Positions 1-5,428 of a stretch of 5,428 nucleotides of DNA are shown here, piece by piece. How positions within the stretch are numbered: position 1 is the stretch's first letter; every line of letters starts with the position of its first letter. The DNA is taken from positions 1-5,428 of IMG/VR virus record IMGVR_UViG_2778261035_000008; one strand, written 5' to 3'. The position numbers and the translations under genes were made by a program. The notes beneath the pieces are model-generated. The model did no database searches. It saw only the letters and a list, made by a program, of their open reading frames with translations, and had not been told where the DNA came from. This stretch comes from a virus (Duplodnaviria > Heunggongvirae > Uroviricota > Caudoviricetes).

Positions 1-239
1 ACCGGTTTTGACTGGTCAGCGATGGCCTGCAACGATGCCGCCAGCGTGCCTTTTTTACCGGCCTTTGCAATTGCGCTTTGCACATTGGTAATCAGCACCG
101 GTTTATTGAGGGGGAAGGTTTCCGCATCCGCATCGCTGGCCGTGCAGACCATGCCGACAATGGCAGTGGATACGGTGGAAATGACGCGGGTGCCGTCGTT
201 AATCTCCAGCACCTGCACGCCATGATGATAGTCACTCAT
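1..239 (-). CDS. FI: Contractile tail sheath protein, N-terminal 79 codons (P2 gpFI-like); gene continues beyond the window's left edge
   Basis: Reverse complement from ATG (239..237) reads [79 protein letters not shown] with no stop before position 1. I recognise this as the N-terminus of P2-type tail sheath FI (recalled from memory, not searched). A GGAG Shine-Dalgarno (revcomp of 248..251) sits 8 nt upstream of the ATG. The + strand ORFs 22..225 and 78..293 are antisense shadows of this gene. Confidence 0.85.
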
Positions 240-827
240 CCGTTTAACTCCGTGGTTAATGGGTGCAACTATTTTCTGTTGGGCAGTGCATGAGACGCTA
301 TTTGACCTGACTGGTCAGTGGATGAAACAACAGATAAAGAAAAGGCGGGCAATCAGATTGCCTGTCCTGATTTGTACTCACTCATTTTCCGACTGACAGT
401 TTACATAGCCAAAACGCTATCAAATCTGACAGCCTGCTTGAGCGAGGAGCAGGCCTTGCAACTTCGTAGGCGCACTTTTAATATTTTTATGGGCAGTTAA
501 AAAACTTGTGGTATAAAGGCTCACCTACTGAACGTACTGTTGAATGAAGCGGGGTCTACAAGAATGAAAAAAATACGAACAGAACCGCCAACCGTTTCGG
601 TGAATAAATTAGTTTACGCTTATCCTGCACACTATTAATTTTAGAATCAAAAAAGACCAACTAAAATACAAAATAATTTTTACAGTGATTAGTTAATCAT
701 GAAAATATAAAGATAATCAAAACCACCACTTAAATTAACTGACACCCAAGCCTTGCAATGAAGATAACCCCCCGCAGCAGCGAGGTAATATCTTTTGTAT
801 CTATGTCGCAAAATATCACTCTTTTAC

Positions 828-856
828 TTGCTTAGAGCCCTCATAAGAGATACTTT
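828..856 (+). promoter_or_regulatory. Candidate sigma70-type promoter for the cargo gene (-35 TTGCTT 828..833, 17-nt spacer, -10 TACTTT 851..856)
   Basis: Read by eye in the AT-rich leader about 40 nt upstream of the ATG at 893. The -10 matches the consensus only at the T, A and final T positions. AT-rich DNA produces many such matches by chance. Confidence 0.2.
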
Positions 857-892
857 ATCAATCTTTATTCACGAACATCTAAATGGCAAATC

Positions 893-3055
893 ATGATAAA
901 CAATATAGTTATAAATAAAGTTGCAAGTTATAAGTCAAAATCAGAGTTAAATACTGATAAAAAAGTAAATATTATTTATGGTTTAAATGGAACAGGTAAA
1001 AGCACCTTCTCCAATTATTTCTATGACATAGATAATAAAAAATATGAGAATTGTTCCCACTCAGGTGAGTATGATGAAATCCTTGTCTACAATCAGAAAT
1101 TCATTCAGGATAACTTTTATGCAAAGGATTCTTTAAATGGAATATTTAGCTTGTCCAAGGAAAATAAAGAAGCAAAAGAAAAGGTTGAGAGCCTCACATT
1201 AGAAATAATAAAACTATCTGATGAAAAACGTGAAATTGAAAAAGAAATAACAGCACAAAACACCTCTGTTTCTGATGCAAAAAACAAAGCTCAAAATAAA
1301 ACATGGGAAATAAAAACCAACTATTCAGGTGGTGACAGGGTCCTTGAATTTTGTTTATTAGGAAAAATGGGAAGTAAAGAATCATTATTCAACCATCTTT
1401 GCTCCATTCCTTTACCTAATTCTAAGCCATCAAAAAACATCTCTGACTTAAAAGAAGAAGCAAGTGCGATTGATGGCGAAACAGCAATAAAATACAGCAT
1501 GCTAGAGGAGATTCACACCATCGTATTATCACTCGATGAAGTGGAATTACTTCAGAATATAATTGTGGGAAGTACAGATAGTCCCGTTTCATATCTTATA
1601 AGTAAGCTTCAGAACTCTGATTGGGTAAATGAAGGACTAAAATACTTAGAACAAACAGGAGATTCTCAGTGTCCATTTTGTCAATCTCAAATTATAACTG
1701 AAAACTTGGTTCAGCATATTCGCAACTATTTCGATGAAACGTATCAAGATAGTGTAAAAAAAATAAAATCCATTCAGACCAAATATAACTCATTGATTGA
1801 CAGTATTCCTTCACTGGATACTTATAAAGAATGCAAACTATCTTCAAATTATATAGTTCAATTAAGCGACTGTTACGCCCTGTTAAGAAAAGATACAGAG
1901 AGCAACTTGGAACTAATAAAGCAGAAGGTAACAAACCCCAGTACCCCAGTAACGCTGAATGATATATCCAACTCTGTTGATAACTTCAATTCATTAGTGA
2001 AATTAGTGAACAATGAAATAACCACACATAACTCAAAAATAGACAATGCAAAACACGAGCTAGAAAAAATAAAAATTTCTTTCTGGCAGCTCTTAAGGTA
2101 TGAGTATGATCAAACAATTTTAAATTTCAACGAAATAAAAGAAAGTGCAAACATTATAACAATCAGAAAAAACACCGCCAAAGATGAAAAAGAAGCAAAA
2201 ATAAAGACTAAAGATGCAGAACGGATTGAATATCAGAAATCAACAGTAAATATAGATGATGCCGTATTCAACATAAACCAAGGTTTAAATGACATCGGAA
2301 TCACAGATTTTCACATCGCAAAATATGAGGATACTCTTTATCGCATAGTACGTAATGACTCTAATTCTAAAGTATTCTCATCATTAAGTGAAGGCGAAAA
2401 AATGATTATCAGCCTTTTGTATTTTAGAGAACTATTCAGAGGTAAAAGAGTCGCCACCGAGGGTAAAACCAAAAAAATAGCTATAATCGATGATCCTGTA
2501 TCAAGCTTATCACATATTTTTGTCTACAATATAGGCCAACTAATAAAAAATGATTTCTTTAACTCTAATGAAATAGAGCAGATATTTGTTTTATCTCACA
2601 GCTTATATTTTTTCTATGAACTCGCTGATGCAAACCATGAAAGAAGAAAAGAAAATCAAAATTTATTTAGGCTTTCTAAAAACTCCAACGGCAGTTCAAT
2701 TATCTTAATGAAATACGATGAAATACAAAATGACTACCAGTCTTATTGGTCAGTAATCAATGATGACAAACAGCCTCCTGCCTTAATTGCTAACTGCATG
2801 AGAAATATAATTGAATACTTTTTCAATTTTGTACAAAAAGCAGATTTAAGCAATGTCACTCAAAAACCAGAGTTAAAAAAACCACGATTTCAATCCTTTA
2901 TTCGCTACATAAACAGAGAGTCACACTCATTAGGACAGAACATTTTTGACTTCAAGGAATTTAACTATAATGATTTCAAAGAAGGGCTTAGATTAGTGTT
3001 TGAGCACACAGGTTATTCTGCACATTATAAAAAAATGGCAAAAATAAAGAACTAA
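893..3055 (+). CDS. ABC-type ATPase with a CxxC-containing insertion and putative C-terminal nuclease domain; candidate RloC/PrrC-like anticodon nuclease (anti-phage abortive-infection protein). Function is inferred.
   Basis: 720-codon ORF, ATG 893 to TAA 3053..3055. An in-frame stop at 833..835 and no alternative start codon between make 893 the only possible start; no canonical SD. Motifs read from the translation: Walker A GLNGTGKST (aa 30-38, nt 980..1006); CPFC (aa 260-263, nt 1670..1681) in a Lys/Glu-rich region between Walker A and signature; signature-like LSEGEK (aa 498-503, nt 2384..2401); Walker B KIAIIDD(P) (aa 528-535, nt 2474..2497); H-loop-like VLSHS (His569, nt 2597..2599). 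C-terminal domain (aa ~585-720) has R637-x3-E641 (nt 2801..2815) and H678 (nt 2924..2926). Confidence that this is a real gene is ~0.9; confidence in the RloC/PrrC-like call is ~0.45. Confidence 0.8.
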   Translation: MINNIVINKVASYKSKSELNTDKKVNIIYGLNGTGKSTFSNYFYDIDNKKYENCSHSGEYDEILVYNQKFIQDNFYAKDSLNGIFSLSKENKEAKEKVESLTLEIIKLSDEKREIEKEITAQNTSVSDAKNKAQNKTWEIKTNYSGGDRVLEFCLLGKMGSKESLFNHLCSIPLPNSKPSKNISDLKEEASAIDGETAIKYSMLEEIHTIVLSLDEVELLQNIIVGSTDSPVSYLISKLQNSDWVNEGLKYLEQTGDSQCPFCQSQIITENLVQHIRNYFDETYQDSVKKIKSIQTKYNSLIDSIPSLDTYKECKLSSNYIVQLSDCYALLRKDTESNLELIKQKVTNPSTPVTLNDISNSVDNFNSLVKLVNNEITTHNSKIDNAKHELEKIKISFWQLLRYEYDQTILNFNEIKESANIITIRKNTAKDEKEAKIKTKDAERIEYQKSTVNIDDAVFNINQGLNDIGITDFHIAKYEDTLYRIVRNDSNSKVFSSLSEGEKMIISLLYFRELFRGKRVATEGKTKKIAIIDDPVSSLSHIFVYNIGQLIKNDFFNSNEIEQIFVLSHSLYFFYELADANHERRKENQNLFRLSKNSNGSSIILMKYDEIQNDYQSYWSVINDDKQPPALIANCMRNIIEYFFNFVQKADLSNVTQKPELKKPRFQSFIRYINRESHSLGQNIFDFKEFNYNDFKEGLRLVFEHTGYSAHYKKMAKIKN

Positions 3056-3100
3056 AAAACCGCAGTATATGGTTCAATGACTGAATTAATTATTCATCAC

Positions 3101-3131
3101 AGCCTATCAGGGATTTTATTATTGATAGGCT
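3101..3131. terminator. Stem-loop between convergent genes; possible intrinsic terminator for the cargo gene
   Basis: Perfect 9-bp inverted repeat AGCCTATCA (3101..3109) / TGATAGGCT (3123..3131) with a 13-nt loop, 46 nt after the cargo stop codon, followed on the + strand by ATTTATCTTATATAT. The tail is T-rich but not a clean T-run. Confidence 0.4.
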
Positions 3132-3200
3132 ATTTATCTTATATATCACCATGTTCGCATATCTGCTATTGCTTGCCCCTCCCGCTATCTAGCATGATCT

Positions 3201-3236
3201 TGACAGCTTCCGCTCGTGGCACAGAGCGGACTGTCA
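3201..3236 (-). terminator. Imperfect GC-rich hairpin downstream of gene G; possible terminator of the H-G tail fiber transcript
   Basis: TGACAG-CTTC-CGCTC / GAGCG-GA-CTGTCA around a GTGGCACA loop, about 60 nt past the G stop on the minus strand. No clear U-tract on the minus strand, so the terminator role is uncertain. Confidence 0.25.
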
Positions 3237-3292
3237 GATTAGGCTTTACTCTGTGCCATAGATATGTAAGCTCACACCAGAGCTCATACAAC

Positions 3293-3820
3293 TTATTGCG
3301 GCATTTCCGGCCATTCAGGATTTGCAGGATCCACACGACTGACCAGAACGCTGTAGCGTTCCCATGCTTCCAGTCGGCTGCGCTCCTCATCTGTTGCCAT
3401 GTTCAGTCTGACCGCGCGCTCCAGCAGCAAAATCACGGATTCAGCTTCGGAAAGTAAAGTTGCCTTTTGTGATTCTGCCAGTTGATGCTGTTCGTCTGCC
3501 GTATAAATCCGCTTAATCACGGCACCATCCTTAAACATCCATTTACCTGAGTCATCAGCACGTCGGTTGGCGGTAATATCAGGAACCTCGACAACGCTAA
3601 AACCTTCAGGGTTAAGCGTTGAAGCATCTCTGGTGATGCCGACAATTATATTATTCTCGTCGTAAACAATCTTTATCGTGTCTTCCTGAAAATTACTTAC
3701 TTCCTCATACCAGTTTTTTCCGTCTTCAGACCATAACCAGATAACATCAAAATTTTTTGTCAGTTGATATTGAGCAACAGTTTTGGGATTACCCGCAGTA
3801 ATATTTTTTAAATGCTGCAT
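3293..3820 (-). CDS. G: Tail fiber assembly (chaperone) protein, P2 gpG-like
   Basis: 175-codon ORF, ATG at 3820..3818 and TAA at 3295..3293. Translation [41 protein letters not shown]...[13 protein letters not shown] is recognised as P2 gpG-type tail fiber assembly protein (from memory). The start lies 3 nt after the H stop, with an AGGTG SD inside the last H codons, which is typical H-G coupling. Confidence 0.9.
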
Positions 3821-3823
3821 AAA

Positions 3824-5428
3824 TTACACCTGTGCGACGTTATACCATGTGCCATTGATGTATTTTTGTATTGGTCTGAATACTGCGGGGTCATCACCAT
3901 CGACTTCACCGACAATACCAAGCCCTGTAATTACATGGCCTGATTTTTCATACATCACACCTTTTTGCATAGTCTGAACAATACGTGTGCCCAGGCGAAT
4001 ATCTCGTACATAGCGAGAATCCGATTCAGCTTTGGTATATGCACCAACATCTCCCGCAGAGGGTTTGCGGGTTGTGGTGTAAAACTCTGACCAGTCAGCC
4101 TCAAATCCATAACCATCACGTGCTGAACGATAAAAAATACCGCCGTTCTTATAATTCACACGGAACTGTACGGCAGGGCAACTCCCCGCATTCATATTGA
4201 AGTGGAGGATTAATGTCGATGCACCGCTGATATCTGCATCATAAACACCGCTATTCCAGTTCCAGCCAACAGCTTTATCATTTGCAACCCTGCTTCCTGT
4301 TTGCCCTAAAGCAAATGCAGGCTGCTGGTTTTTCGTGTTGTAGTCTCGTCGCCAGCCGGGGGCATAAGCATCACCATGATTAATATAAGTGAATTGAGCG
4401 TTAGTGGTGCCGCCTCCGGTAGAAGTGCTTGGTGTTGTTACACGGATGGTCATGGCACCTTTATTACCCATAACCTCAATAACGCAACCTGCAAGATGAA
4501 TAGTTCCACAGCCAGTATCGGTAATAATTTTATTATTGCCGTATGACCATGAACATTTGCACATCCAGTACGGATGATTAAATGCACCACGGGAATCCAG
4601 CCATTCAATAAACTGAGCGGTTGTCCAGTTTCCGGCTTCAGTGCTCAAAGCGCCGCTATAAGCACGACAGGCACCGATATTTTTCGTGAAGGTATCCTTT
4701 CCCGGAATATCCGCACCGTTCTGATCTTTCTGAAGACGTTTTTCAGCATTGTCATAGGCAGACTTCACCGCTTTTGGTGTTGCGGCCAGCGTTTCCGAAT
4801 CACTGTTGGTGGCGCTACTGAGCTGGACAAGGCCTTTCCGCGCCGTGGTGGCATCCTGCGCAGTGTATTTCCCGTTAGCAAGGTCATACGCTGTCTTAAC
4901 CGCCTTTGGAGTTGCTGCAAGCGTTTCAGAATCGCTGTTGGTGGCGCTACTGAGCTGGACAAGGCCTTTTCGCGTTGTGGTGGCGTCCTGTGCAGTGTAT
5001 TTCCCGTTAGCAAGGTCATATGCTGCCTTTACCGCTTTCGGCGTTGCGGCCAGTGTTTCAGACGTGCTGTTGGTCGCACTGCTTAACTGAGTAAAACCTT
5101 TTGCGGTCAGCGAGGCGTCAGGGTGACGTCGTGACTGTTCATGTTCTGCAATTTTGTCATCAACGTAATCCTGCGTTGCCATCACCGTTGTGGTGTCAAT
5201 GGTCAGCTCCACTGAGGCCACACTGCTGACGATGATGACCATGCGGCAGGTCTGCGAACGCCCTGAGCCTTCGGCAAGGGCTGGCTTATAACTTTCGGCC
5301 ATGTTCGCCACGGCAATTAACGTTCCCGCATCATCGTACAGGCCAAGCTCTCGCATCCAGAAACCGCCCACCTCCGGCGGAATAACCAGCTCTGCGATAA
5401 TATAATTACTGTTTCGTTTGTCCTGGCT
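3824..5428 (-). CDS. H: Tail fiber protein (P2 gpH-like N-terminal region, divergent C-terminal receptor-binding region); 5' end lies beyond the window's right edge
   Basis: Minus-strand frame is open from the window edge (5428) to TAA at 3826..3824. The ORF track's M at 5371 is a GTG codon; the frame upstream reads SQDKRNSNYIIAELVIPPEV without a stop, so the true start is outside the window. The part reading ...GGFWMRELGLYDDAGTLIAVANMAESYKPALAEGSGR...TIDTTTVMATQDYVDDKIAEH matches P2 gpH as I recall it, followed by tandem fiber repeats (SSATNSxSETLAATPKAVKxAYD) and a distinct C-terminal domain. Confidence 0.9.
   Translation of the reverse strand, partial: SQDKRNSNYIIAELVIPPEVGGFWMRELGLYDDAGTLIAVANMAESYKPALAEGSGRSQTCRMVIIVSSVASVELTIDTTTVMATQDYVDDKIAEHEQSRRHPDASLTAKGFTQLSSATNSTSETLAATPKAVKAAYDLANGKYTAQDATTTRKGLVQLSSATNSDSETLAATPKAVKTAYDLANGKYTAQDATTARKGLVQLSSATNSDSETLAATPKAVKSAYDNAEKRLQKDQNGADIPGKDTFTKNIGACRAYSGALSTEAGNWTTAQFIEWLDSRGAFNHPYWMCKCSWSYGNNKIITDTGCGTIHLAGCVIEVMGNKGAMTIRVTTPSTSTGGGTTNAQFTYINHGDAYAPGWRRDYNTKNQQPAFALGQTGSRVANDKAVGWNWNSGVYDADISGASTLILHFNMNAGSCPAVQFRVNYKNGGIFYRSARDGYGFEADWSEFYTTTRKPSAGDVGAYTKAESDSRYVRDIRLGTRIVQTMQKGVMYEKSGHVITGLGIVGEVDGDDPAVFRPIQKYINGTWYNVAQV
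4745..5101. repeat. Direct tandem repeat, 132-bp period, about 2.7 copies, inside tail fiber gene H (encodes 44-aa fiber repeats)
   Basis: Copies at 4970..5101, 4838..4969 and a partial copy at 4745..4837. The 132-bp period was verified by matching anchors (ACCGCTTTTGGTGT at 4767..4780 vs ACCGCCTTTGGAGT at 4899..4912 vs ACCGCTTTCGGCGT at 5031..5044). The protein repeats are KGFTQLSSATNSTSETLAATPKAVKAAYDLANGKYTAQDATTTR / KGLVQLSSATNSDSETLAATPKAVKTAYDLANGKYTAQDATTAR / KGLVQLSSATNSDSETLAATPKAVKSAYD. Confidence 0.85.

What the first reader, a model, noticed from the sequence alone, without database searches (positions are those of the whole stretch)
2645..3052. C-terminal domain carries an Arg-x3-Glu ... 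His arrangement like the PrrC anticodon-nuclease catalytic triad
In the last ~140 residues, R637 and E641 are spaced R-x3-E (CMRNIIEY) and H678 follows 37 residues later (RESHSLG). As I recall it, the PrrC anticodon nuclease active site uses an Arg/Glu/His triad with the same R-x3-E spacing and a His some 30 residues downstream. The domain is too short for a Toprim fold and lacks an obvious DxD motif, which argues against an OLD- or PARIS-AriB-type nuclease. This is pattern matching by eye on three residues and could be coincidence.
Basis: inference. Interest (0 to 1): 0.6.

Follow-up and report, generated by a model that had tools for sequence, protein, structure and literature searches.

The report
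RloC/PrrC-type tRNA nuclease in prophage
The Arg/Glu/His pattern is real and is the conserved active site of an RloC/PrrC-type "suicide" RNase fused to a DNA-sensing ATPase, carried as a rare defence gene in a P2-like prophage; this is an ordinary new member of a known protein family.

Summary
Observation confirmed. R637, E641 and H678 sit at nt 2801, 2813 and 2924 of a 720-aa ORF (893-3055, +).

The three-residue pattern alone is weak. It appears in 8.5% of shuffled C-domains and three times in this protein. It is, however, part of a seven-residue motif: R637-N638-x2-E641 ... R671-x2-N674-x2-S677-H678. This reproduces the spacing of the mutationally essential PrrC residues R320-N321-x2-E324 ... 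R349-x2-N352-x2-S355-H356. Each residue is 84-99% conserved across 128 C-domains from separate 50%-identity clusters.

The whole protein matches Pfam AAA_13 (E=3e-107), as does bona fide PrrC. Profile-profile alignment to 29 PrrC sequences puts all seven residues in register: full length 95.9% probability, C-domain alone P=0.0024.

The architecture is RloC-like rather than PrrC-like. An ABC ATPase is interrupted by a ~360-aa helical insert with an invariant CPFC "zinc hook", followed by R-x3-E-x36-SH.

The gene is the only ORF in a low-GC cargo island (453-3206) in a P2-like tail-gene hotspot, and occurs in 2 of 5,426 complete E. coli genomes. PADLOC calls it candidate PDC-S06.

New member of a known kind; modest interest. 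RNase activity, target and trigger are inferred, not shown.

The parts
453..3206 (.). Variable cargo island in a P2-like prophage tail-gene hotspot, between the tail sheath gene (off the left end) and the tail fibre assembly gene. GC is about 31% against about 45-55% in the flanks.
   Evidence: blastn against an E. coli O145 prophage that carries an SMEK gene in the same slot: backbone homology covers window 1-452 and 3207-5428 only. GC profile. Other E. coli prophages hold SMEK, Shedu or LPO_1073 genes here.
893..3055 (+). Single 720-aa ORF: an RloC-like ABC-ATPase / zinc-hook / HEPN-type RNase (Pfam AAA_13; PADLOC candidate PDC-S06). RefSeq annotates it 'AAA family ATPase'.
   Evidence: AAA_13, E=2.9e-107, residues 10-699; PDC-S06, E=1.4e-254; WP_112911329.1.
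980..1006 (+). Walker A / P-loop, GLNGTGKST (residues 30-38; K36).
   Evidence: G35 and K36 are invariant in 118 homologues. 91 of 92 diverse full-length relatives have the motif.
1151..2236 (+). About 360-aa mostly helical insert in the ABC head (residues about 87-448), flanked by two long helices (87-137 and 406-448). It corresponds to the coiled-coil insert of RloC and Rad50.
   Evidence: AF2 full-length model, pLDDT 83-94 over the long helices. PrrC lacks this segment.
1670..1681 (+). CPFC (C260-C263), a candidate zinc hook at the midpoint of the insert.
   Evidence: Invariant in 118 close homologues. CP[FL]C is present at about position 264 in all 92 full-length representatives. The RloC hook is C-x-x-C, C291 in GkaRloC (PMC3458546).
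2381..2401 (+). ABC signature motif, SLSEGEK (residues 497-503).
2477..2512 (+). Walker B and D-loop, IAIIDDPVSSLS (residues 529-540).
   Evidence: Aligns to PrrC FIDDPVSSL, which contains D215/D216.
2588..2602 (+). H-loop / linchpin His, VLSHS (H569).
   Evidence: Invariant. Aligns to PrrC H251.
2630..3052 (+). C-terminal domain (residues 580-720): a beta-hairpin followed by a helical bundle. Predicted HEPN-type, metal-independent RNase (anticodon-nuclease) domain.
2714..2749 (+). YDEIQNDYQSYW (residues 608-619), a highly conserved segment that aligns with the PrrC anticodon-recognition peptide KYGDSNKSFSYH (284-295). Candidate substrate-recognition element with a different sequence.
   Evidence: N613 98%, Y615 100%, Y618 91% and W619 100% conserved. 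Alignment. LARP motif (PMC3025547).
2801..2815 (+). R637-N638-I-I-E641, the counterpart of PrrC R320-N321-x2-E324. It lies in the middle of helix 629-647.
   Evidence: (R 99%, N 94%, E 95%).
2903..2926 (+). R671-Y-I-N674-R675-E-S677-H678, an HEPN R-x6-H motif and the counterpart of PrrC R349-x2-N352-x2-S355-H356. It lies at the end of helix 664-674 and the start of the following loop.
   Evidence: (R671 97%, N674 84%, R675 91%, S677 98%, H678 99%). HEPN motif position (PMC3710099).

Best explanation
The ORF at 893-3055 encodes a single-polypeptide RloC-type ribotoxin. It is carried as defence cargo by a P2-like prophage.

Anatomy (shown): an SMC/Rad50-like ABC ATPase head with intact Walker A, signature, Walker B/D-loop and H-loop motifs. 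The head is split by a ~360-aa helical insert with an invariant CPFC hook at its midpoint. A ~140-aa C-terminal domain homologous to the PrrC/RloC anticodon-nuclease domain (HEPN superfamily) follows.

Mechanism (inferred from PrrC/RloC biochemistry): the nuclease is kept latent by the ATPase/hook module. A phage-associated signal drives ATP-dependent head engagement. In GkaRloC that signal is DNA, especially DNA ends, together with ATP hydrolysis. Head engagement brings the C-domains into an active arrangement. The site built from R637/N638/E641 and R671/N674/S677/H678 then cuts RNA by metal-independent transesterification, leaving 2',3'-cyclic phosphate. The most likely substrate is a tRNA anticodon loop. 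Translation stops and the superinfecting phage is aborted.

The segment equivalent to PrrC's tRNA-Lys recognition peptide has a different, family-specific sequence (EIQNDYQSYW). The substrate therefore need not be tRNA-Lys.
For: Family membership:
- Full-length Pfam AAA_13, and genuine PrrC falls in the same Pfam family above the curated cut-off.
- PADLOC PDC-S06, 845 bits.
- Homologues of 58% identity are named 'Translation-disabling ACNase RloC' or 'wobble nucleotide-excising tRNase' by NCBI and JGI.

Active site:
- Seven PrrC-essential or conserved positions are reproduced with the same spacing, and each is 84-99% conserved over 128 diverse C-domains.
- hhalign full length: 95.9% probability, E=5e-9, in register.
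- C-domain alone: P=0.0024, with 1 of 300 shuffles as good.
- 17 of 29 PrrC C-domains score at least 5 bits against our C-domain HMM, versus 26 of 2,900 decoys.

Published RloC sequence criteria (ABC motifs, coiled-coil/CxxC insert, R-x3-E-x36-52-(S)H; PMC2610378):
- All are met: R-x3-E-x36-SH and CP[FL]C in 92 of 92 relatives.
- Landmarks are collinear with GkaRloC K44/C291/D572/R692/E696/H737.

Fold:
- C-domain model has pLDDT 85. E641 sits on the preceding helix and R-x6-H at a helix end and loop start, as in HEPN domains.

Context:
- It is the only ORF in a low-GC cargo slot that holds other defence genes in sister prophages.
- P2 tail-gene hotspots are defence hotspots (PMC13586616).
- Relatives occur in phages and integrative elements, once next to ArdC.
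Against: - No biochemical or genetic data exist for this protein or for PDC-S06.
- The C-domain alone is not detected by the PADLOC PrrC HMM in 10 of 10 family members tested. The C-domain-only profile similarity is modest: hhalign probability 12% on the database scale.
- There is no solved PrrC or RloC structure to compare with, and AFDB was unavailable.
- 3D proximity of the residues could not be measured.
- The residue after the HEPN Arg is Tyr, not the typical polar N/D/H. PrrC has Ile there, so this is a clade trait.
- The substrate-recognition segment differs from PrrC, so tRNA specificity is unknown.
Confidence: 0.75

Rival explanations
1. The C-domain is an active HEPN RNase, but the physiological substrate is not a tRNA anticodon loop. 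It could be mRNA, rRNA or phage transcripts, as with RnlA/LsoA or Cas13 collateral cleavage.
For: The segment aligned to PrrC's anticodon-recognition peptide is unrelated in sequence: YDEIQNDYQSYW versus KYGDSNKSFSYH. HEPN RNases have many substrate classes (PMC3710099). Nothing here tests the substrate.
Against: [quoted passage not shown] The aromatic positions Y618/W619 align with the essential PrrC Y294/H295.
Confidence: 0.15
2. The protein is a DNA-damage or DNA-end-responsive stress or checkpoint factor serving the prophage or host, for example by tuning induction. It would not be an anti-phage defence, and the RNase would act on self in response to genotoxic stress.
For: RloC ACNase is activated by DNA ends in vitro, and by a DNA-break inducer in Acinetobacter baylyi (PMC3458546; PMC3874168). 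Direct anti-phage data for RloC-type proteins were not found in the papers read.
Against: The gene occupies a slot that carries recognised defence genes (Shedu, SMEK) in sister prophages. P2 hotspots are defence hotspots. The family is flagged as defence-associated by PADLOC through genomic association. The gene is rare and mobile, in 2 of 5,426 E. coli genomes.
Confidence: 0.08
3. The R/E/H arrangement is coincidental or merely structural. The C-domain would be a non-catalytic regulatory or partner-binding module, as in ABC ATPases that need a separate nuclease (AriA/AriB, LmuB/LmuA, PtuA/PtuB).
For: The three-residue pattern is common by chance. The ABC region weakly matches the AriA, LmuB and PtuA models. 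The PADLOC PrrC HMM does not detect the C-domain on its own.
Against: The seven-position motif is 84-99% conserved across clusters at or below 50% identity. The register matches PrrC in three independent alignments. No partner gene is present in the island, nor is one conserved next to homologues.
Confidence: 0.03

Closest known systems
RloC (prototype Geobacillus kaustophilus GkaRloC; Davidov & Kaufmann 2008, PMC2610378; Klaiman et al. 2012, PMC3458546)
   Same: One polypeptide of about 700-800 aa. An ABC ATPase head is interrupted by a helical insert with a central C-x-x-C hook. The C-terminal domain carries R-x3-E-x36-52-(S)H. The order of landmarks is collinear: K44/C291/D572/R692/E696/H737 in GkaRloC versus K36/C260-263/D533-534/R637/E641/H678 here. 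It is not linked to an R-M locus. Close homologues are already labelled RloC by annotation pipelines.
   Different: About 80 aa shorter, with an E-to-H spacing of 36 intervening residues, the lower limit of the published range. A preprint implies that an E. coli PDC-S06 ATPase is not called by DefenseFinder. Whether that protein is this clade was not tested. This copy sits in a P2-like prophage tail hotspot. Wobble-nucleotide excision, the DNA-dependent ATPase and the zinc response are untested.
PrrC (E. coli anticodon nuclease, tRNA-Lys; Blanga-Kanfi 2006, PMC1484252; Meineke 2010, PMC3025547)
   Same: Same Pfam family (AAA_13). The same catalytic constellation, R-N-x2-E ... R-x2-N-x2-S-H. 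Nearly identical distances from the ABC motifs: Walker B Asp to catalytic Arg is 104-105 residues in PrrC and 103-104 here, and H-loop His to Arg is 69 versus 68. The C-terminal tail after the His has similar length (40 versus 42 residues).
   Different: PrrC is 396 aa with no coiled-coil/hook insert. It is always embedded in a type Ic hsd R-M locus and silenced by it. It has the LARP peptide KYGDSNKSFSYH, where this protein has YDEIQNDYQSYW. The PADLOC PrrC HMM matches only the P-loop region of this protein.
Prophage-borne ABC-HEPN proteins of the 'PrrC/RloC/APECO1_4465' group (Anantharaman et al. 2013, PMC3710099)
   Same: ABC ATPase fused to a C-terminal HEPN RNase with a conserved Rx4-6H motif. 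They are encoded in integrated prophages and were proposed to exclude superinfecting phages independently of R-M systems.
   Different: Whether this ORF belongs to the APECO1_4465 subgroup or the RloC subgroup was not tested. The APECO1_4465 sequence could not be retrieved, and one attempt to locate it failed.
PADLOC phage-defence candidate PDC-S06
   Same: Full-length match to sub-model PDLC04886 (E=1.4e-254), with weaker matches to six further PDC-S06 sub-models.
   Different: PDC-S06 is a guilt-by-association candidate with no published mechanism or validation in the papers found. This analysis adds a mechanistic reading: the PDLC04886 clade of PDC-S06, which contains this ORF, consists of RloC-like anticodon-nuclease-type proteins.

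Membership tests
Pfam AAA_13 (PF13166) | Whole-protein score above the curated gathering cut-off (36 bits) | tested here: met
   360.6 bits, E=2.9e-107, residues 10-699 to HMM 2-708 of 713. The C-domain alone scores 52 bits. Genuine PrrC scores 50-62 bits.
RloC | ABC ATPase motifs (Walker A, signature, Walker B/D-loop, H-loop) | tested here: met
   GLNGTGKST, SLSEGEK, IAIIDDPVSSLS and VLSHS are all conserved.
RloC | Coiled-coil insert in the ATPase head with a central C-x-x-C zinc hook | tested here: met
   CPFC 260-263 sits at the midpoint of the 87-448 insert. It is invariant in 118 close relatives and present as CP[FL]C in 92 of 92 diverse relatives. Long flanking helices appear in the AF2 model. 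Zinc binding itself is not testable here.
RloC | C-terminal R-x3-E-x36-52-H motif, with Ser often preceding His | tested here: met
   R637-x3-E641-x36-S677-H678, 95-99% conserved. Definition from PMC2610378.
RloC | Direct sequence homology to a biochemically characterised RloC (GkaRloC or AciRloC) | not tested
The only support is collinearity of published residue numbers and third-party names on 58%-identical homologues.
RloC | Wobble-nucleotide excision; DNA- and ATP-dependent activation; Zn-hook silencing | not testable with these tools
   Needs biochemistry.
PrrC | Catalytic residues R320/N321/E324 and R349/N352/H356 | tested here: met
   They align to R637/N638/E641 and R671/N674/H678. The PrrC residues were verified in 29 PrrC sequences.
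PrrC | About 400-aa ABC-ATPase + ACNase protein without a coiled-coil insert | tested here: not met
   720 aa with a ~360-aa insert.
PrrC | Embedded in a type Ic hsd R-M locus | tested here: not met
   The neighbours are P2-like tail genes, and no hsd genes lie within ±3 kb.
PrrC | Match to a PrrC-specific HMM over the whole protein | tested here: not met
   The PADLOC PrrC model hits only residues 17-81, E=1e-5. It does not hit the C-domain alone. The control PrrC scores E=1.8e-147.
HEPN superfamily | Rx4-6H motif at the end of a helix and the start of the next loop, with an upstream acidic residue on the preceding helix | tested here: met
   R671-x6-H678: helix 664-674, then a loop. E641 lies in helix 629-647. 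Criterion from PMC3710099.
HEPN superfamily | Four-helix up-down bundle fold similar to solved HEPN domains | tested here: inconclusive
PADLOC PDC-S06 | Full-length HMM match | tested here: met
   PDLC04886, 845 bits, residues 1-717 to profile 1-723 of 727.
OLD / PARIS AriB (Toprim nucleases) | Toprim domain with a DxD motif, or a match to AriB or OLD models | tested here: not met
   No Toprim, OLD or AriB hit in Pfam or PADLOC. Only weak AriA (ATPase) matches, in the ABC part.

The most novel reading that the evidence does not exclude
The PDLC04886 clade of PDC-S06, which includes this ORF, is a distinct branch of RloC-like nucleases. It has its own invariant substrate-recognition element (EIQNDYQSYW) and an additional invariant C-terminal His (H711). 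It would cut a different tRNA, or another RNA, from those cut by PrrC and RloC. It would be triggered directly by the DNA ends of a superinfecting phage through its zinc-hook ATPase. If so, this P2 cargo gene would give a natural anti-phage context for the RloC-type switch, which I found documented only in vitro and under genotoxic stress in the papers read.
Probability: 0.3. Interest if true: 0.5.

Novelty: new member of a known kind. Interest (0 to 1): 0.3.

Why it matters
It gives a mechanistic label to a gene that RefSeq calls only "AAA family ATPase" and PADLOC lists as the unexplained candidate PDC-S06. At least the clade containing this gene (PADLOC sub-model PDLC04886) is RloC-like: an ABC-ATPase, zinc hook and HEPN anticodon-nuclease-type ribotoxin with a fully conserved PrrC-type active site.

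It also offers a tractable E. coli/P2 system to ask what triggers RloC-type nucleases during infection and which RNA they cut. The protein class, its catalytic residues and its presence in prophages were all described between 2006 and 2013, so a specialist would not be surprised.

Tried and rejected
- PDB sequence search with the ORF and with PrrC found no solved relative.
- Foldseek of the C-domain model against PDB and BFVD found nothing significant.
- AFDB50 was not available, so the intended direct fold comparison with AlphaFold PrrC/RloC models could not be run.
- The PADLOC PrrC HMM on ten isolated C-domains gave no hit. The full-length PrrC hit of the ENT4 relative is therefore driven by the ABC part and is not independent evidence for the C-domain.
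- NCBIfam gave only sub-threshold Rad50 P-loop hits. Rfam gave nothing in the window.
- The promoter/terminator scan was no better than shuffles. There is no credible partner ORF in the 440-nt leader or the 3' spacer.
- One attempt to locate APECO1_4465 in E. coli APEC O1 by guessed coordinates failed.
- Literature searches for AAA_13, DUF4441 and recent RloC work were uninformative.
- Considered and rejected: a Toprim/OLD/AriB nuclease (no matching domain), a two-gene ATPase + nuclease system (no partner gene), and chance (conservation and register).
Full report
**What is in the window.** The window holds one long ORF on the + strand (893-3055, 720 aa) inside a low-GC stretch, about 31% against 45-55% in the flanks. 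On the minus strand to its right lie a tail fibre assembly gene (3293-3820, Caudo_TAP) and a tail fibre gene (3824-5371). To its left is the start of a tail sheath gene that runs off the window. This is the backbone of a P2-like prophage. Comparison with an E. coli O145 prophage shows backbone homology only for 1-452 and 3207-5428, and that prophage carries an SMEK-domain gene in the same slot. Other E. coli prophages carry Shedu, LPO_1073/Vpar_1526 or a 'lysogenic conversion protein' there. The ORF is therefore the sole cargo of a swap-prone hotspot. Hotspots within the P2 tail genes are described as defence hotspots (PMC13586616). The gene is rare: 2 of 5,426 complete E. coli genomes carry it.

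**Check of the observation.** Coordinates 2645-3052 are residues 585-720. R637, E641 and H678 are as stated. The three-residue pattern alone would not be convincing. R-x3-E-x36-52-H appears in 8.5% of shuffled C-domains and 33% of shuffled whole proteins, and three times in the real protein.

**What lifts it above chance.**
- The residues are invariant in 118 homologues of at least 57% identity. They are 95-99% conserved in 128 C-domains drawn from separate 50%-identity clusters: R637 99%, E641 95%, H678 99%.
- The mutational literature on PrrC lists further essential nuclease-domain residues, N321, R349 and N352 (PMC3025547). This protein has N638, R671 and N674 at exactly the corresponding spacing, plus Ser before the His. 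The motifs are R-N-x2-E ... R-x2-N-x2-S-H in both proteins. The six-residue pattern occurs in 0.025% of shuffles.
- R671-x6-H678 is the HEPN superfamily Rx4-6H motif, and E641 is the upstream acidic residue of that superfamily. PrrC and RloC were assigned to this superfamily in 2013 (PMC3710099).

**Homology to PrrC, tested with real PrrC sequences.** I scanned one genome per species for the exact PrrC anticodon-recognition peptide KYGDSNKSFSYH. This returned 40 loci, from which I extracted 29 complete PrrC genes.

*Controls.*
- The Enterobacter copy (L043, 396 aa) reproduces every published EcoPrrC residue number and scores E=1.8e-147 on the PADLOC PrrC model.
- That PrrC matches Pfam AAA_13 above the curated cut-off (50.1 bits; residues 152-358 to HMM 484-688). 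The window ORF matches the same model end to end (360.6 bits; 10-699 to 2-708). Both C-domains therefore map to the same part of one curated family.

*Alignments.*
- hhalign of a 93-sequence full-length family profile against the PrrC profile gives 95.9% probability, E=5e-9. The alignment runs from the signature motif through the C-domain. It pairs R637/N638/E641/R671/N674/S677/H678 with R320/N321/E324/R349/N352/S355/H356.
- With the ABC part removed, the C-domain profiles still align in the same register. P=0.0024, and only 1 of 300 column-shuffled PrrC profiles scores as high.
- An HMM of the C-domain scores at least 5 bits on 17 of 29 PrrC C-domains, versus 26 of 2,900 shuffled decoys.

The similarity of the nuclease domain alone is thus weak but reproducible, and it falls at the expected place. 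It is too weak for the PADLOC PrrC HMM to see in isolated C-domains. This explains why the gene is not labelled PrrC.

**Architecture: RloC-like, not PrrC-like.** PrrC is about 400 aa and sits inside a type Ic R-M locus. This protein is 720 aa, stands alone, and has a ~360-aa mostly helical insert (about 87-448) between Walker A and the signature motif. At the midpoint of the insert is C260-P-F-C263. It is invariant in close homologues and present as CP[FL]C in all 92 full-length representatives. RloC was defined as a distant PrrC homologue with the ABC motifs, a coiled-coil insert bearing a CxxC zinc hook, and R-x3-E-x36-52-H 'where Ser often precedes His' (PMC2610378). This ORF has R-x3-E-x36-SH. 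Published GkaRloC landmarks (K44, C291, D572, R692, E696, H737) are collinear with K36, C260/263, D533/534, R637, E641 and H678. Homologues at 58% identity are already named 'Translation-disabling ACNase RloC' or 'wobble nucleotide-excising tRNase' in NCBI and JGI records. PADLOC files the protein under candidate PDC-S06 (E=1.4e-254), for which I found no mechanistic or experimental description. The 2013 HEPN survey had already noted prophage-encoded ABC-HEPN proteins in the 'PrrC/RloC/APECO1_4465' group and proposed that they exclude other phages.

**How it most likely works.**

*Shown:* intact ATPase motifs, a conserved hook, a conserved PrrC-type catalytic constellation, a single-gene cargo, and a defence-hotspot location.

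*Inferred from PrrC/RloC biochemistry:*
- The RNase is latent until the ATPase/hook module senses a signal and hydrolyses ATP. For GkaRloC the signal is DNA, preferentially linear DNA.
- The C-domain then cleaves RNA by metal-independent transesterification. The substrate is most likely a tRNA anticodon loop.
- Translation shuts off and the infection is aborted.

The segment that aligns with PrrC's tRNA-Lys recognition peptide is a different, strongly conserved sequence: YDEIQNDYQSYW, with Y615 and W619 at 100%. The target may therefore differ from that of PrrC.

**Rivals.**
- RNase with a non-tRNA substrate, about 0.15.
- A DNA-damage or stress role rather than phage defence, about 0.08.
- A non-catalytic C-domain, about 0.03.

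**Context of relatives.** The C-domain family comprises 485 50%-identity clusters, mostly proteins of 700-760 aa. Relatives occur in several settings:
- temperate phages, including Enterobacter phage ENT4, gut phages and Streptococcus Javan prophages;
- a Vibrio vulnificus chromosomal island;
- an Erwiniaceae integrative element next to ArdC, a linkage also noted for RloC in 2008.

No conserved partner gene was seen.

**Verdict.** It is a new member of a known kind. Interest is modest (0.3). The value lies in attaching a mechanism to PDC-S06 and to 'AAA family ATPase' annotations, and in offering an E. coli/P2 model for the RloC switch.

Noticed in passing
window 453-3206, compared with L053 955-2305: The cargo slot between the tail sheath and tail fibre assembly genes is swapped wholesale between otherwise 95-98% identical P2-like prophages. 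Other E. coli prophages carry SMEK-domain, Shedu, LPO_1073/Vpar_1526 or 'lysogenic conversion' genes in it. The junctions are sharp, at window 452/453 and 3206/3207.
   Followed up: partly
window 4574-5090 (tail fibre gene 3824-5371, minus strand): The tail fibre protein contains three near-identical tandem ~40-aa Phage_fiber_2 repeats (…RKGLVQLSSATNSDSETLAATPKAVK.AYDLANGKYTAQDATT…). The underlying DNA repeat also creates long spurious ORFs on the opposite strand.
   Followed up: no
P0174 (396 aa; L054 8001-9191): One metagenome-assembled genome encodes a 396-aa protein with this family's ABC head and C-domain (E=2e-39) but without the coiled-coil/zinc-hook insert, a PrrC-like architecture inside the RloC-like family. 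It lies next to an IS transposase near a contig end, not next to an R-M system. It could be a natural deletion derivative or an assembly artefact.
   Followed up: partly
window 2792-2941 (residues about 634-683): Pfam DUF4441 (PF14536) is weakly hit by 34 of 62 family C-domains (best E=7.6e-5; this ORF E=0.04, profile positions 2-53 of 116), exactly over the R-N-x2-E ... R-x2-N-x3-H core. DUF4441 may be a stand-alone relative of the PrrC/RloC nuclease domain. No literature was found.
   Followed up: partly
L004-L043 (genome contigs): The 12-residue PrrC anticodon-recognition peptide KYGDSNKSFSYH is conserved exactly in PrrC genes of 40 species. They span Proteobacteria, Bacteroidota, Verrucomicrobiota, Chloroflexota and Campylobacterota. 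N352 is Gln in 19 of 29 of them.
   Followed up: partly
L002 1429-3690 (Streptococcus phage Javan105): A prophage protein annotated 'translation-disabling ACNase RloC' (25% identical; PDC-S06 sub-model PDLC04890) keeps CPYC. It has R-Q-x2-D instead of R-N-x2-E, and apparently R-I-S-D where this family has R-E-S-H. Its nuclease site may be altered or inactive.
   Followed up: no
L045 4565-7719 (Vibrio vulnificus): The 59%-identical Vibrio homologue is preceded by two overlapping genes (551 and 499 aa) with no Pfam hits, in the same orientation. This may be another, uncharacterised defence pair in the same island.
   Followed up: no
L051 10836-12854 (Erwiniaceae integrative element): The 72%-identical homologue lies about 1.7 kb from an ArdC-type anti-restriction gene (ArdcN + MPTase-PolyVal), in an element with three tyrosine-recombinase-like genes. 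This echoes the RloC-ArdC linkage mentioned in the 2008 RloC paper.
   Followed up: no
window 3023-3028 (H711-Y712): A second His (H711, 99% conserved, followed by Y712 at 86%) near the C-terminus has no described counterpart in PrrC. Its role, structural or catalytic, is unknown.
   Followed up: no
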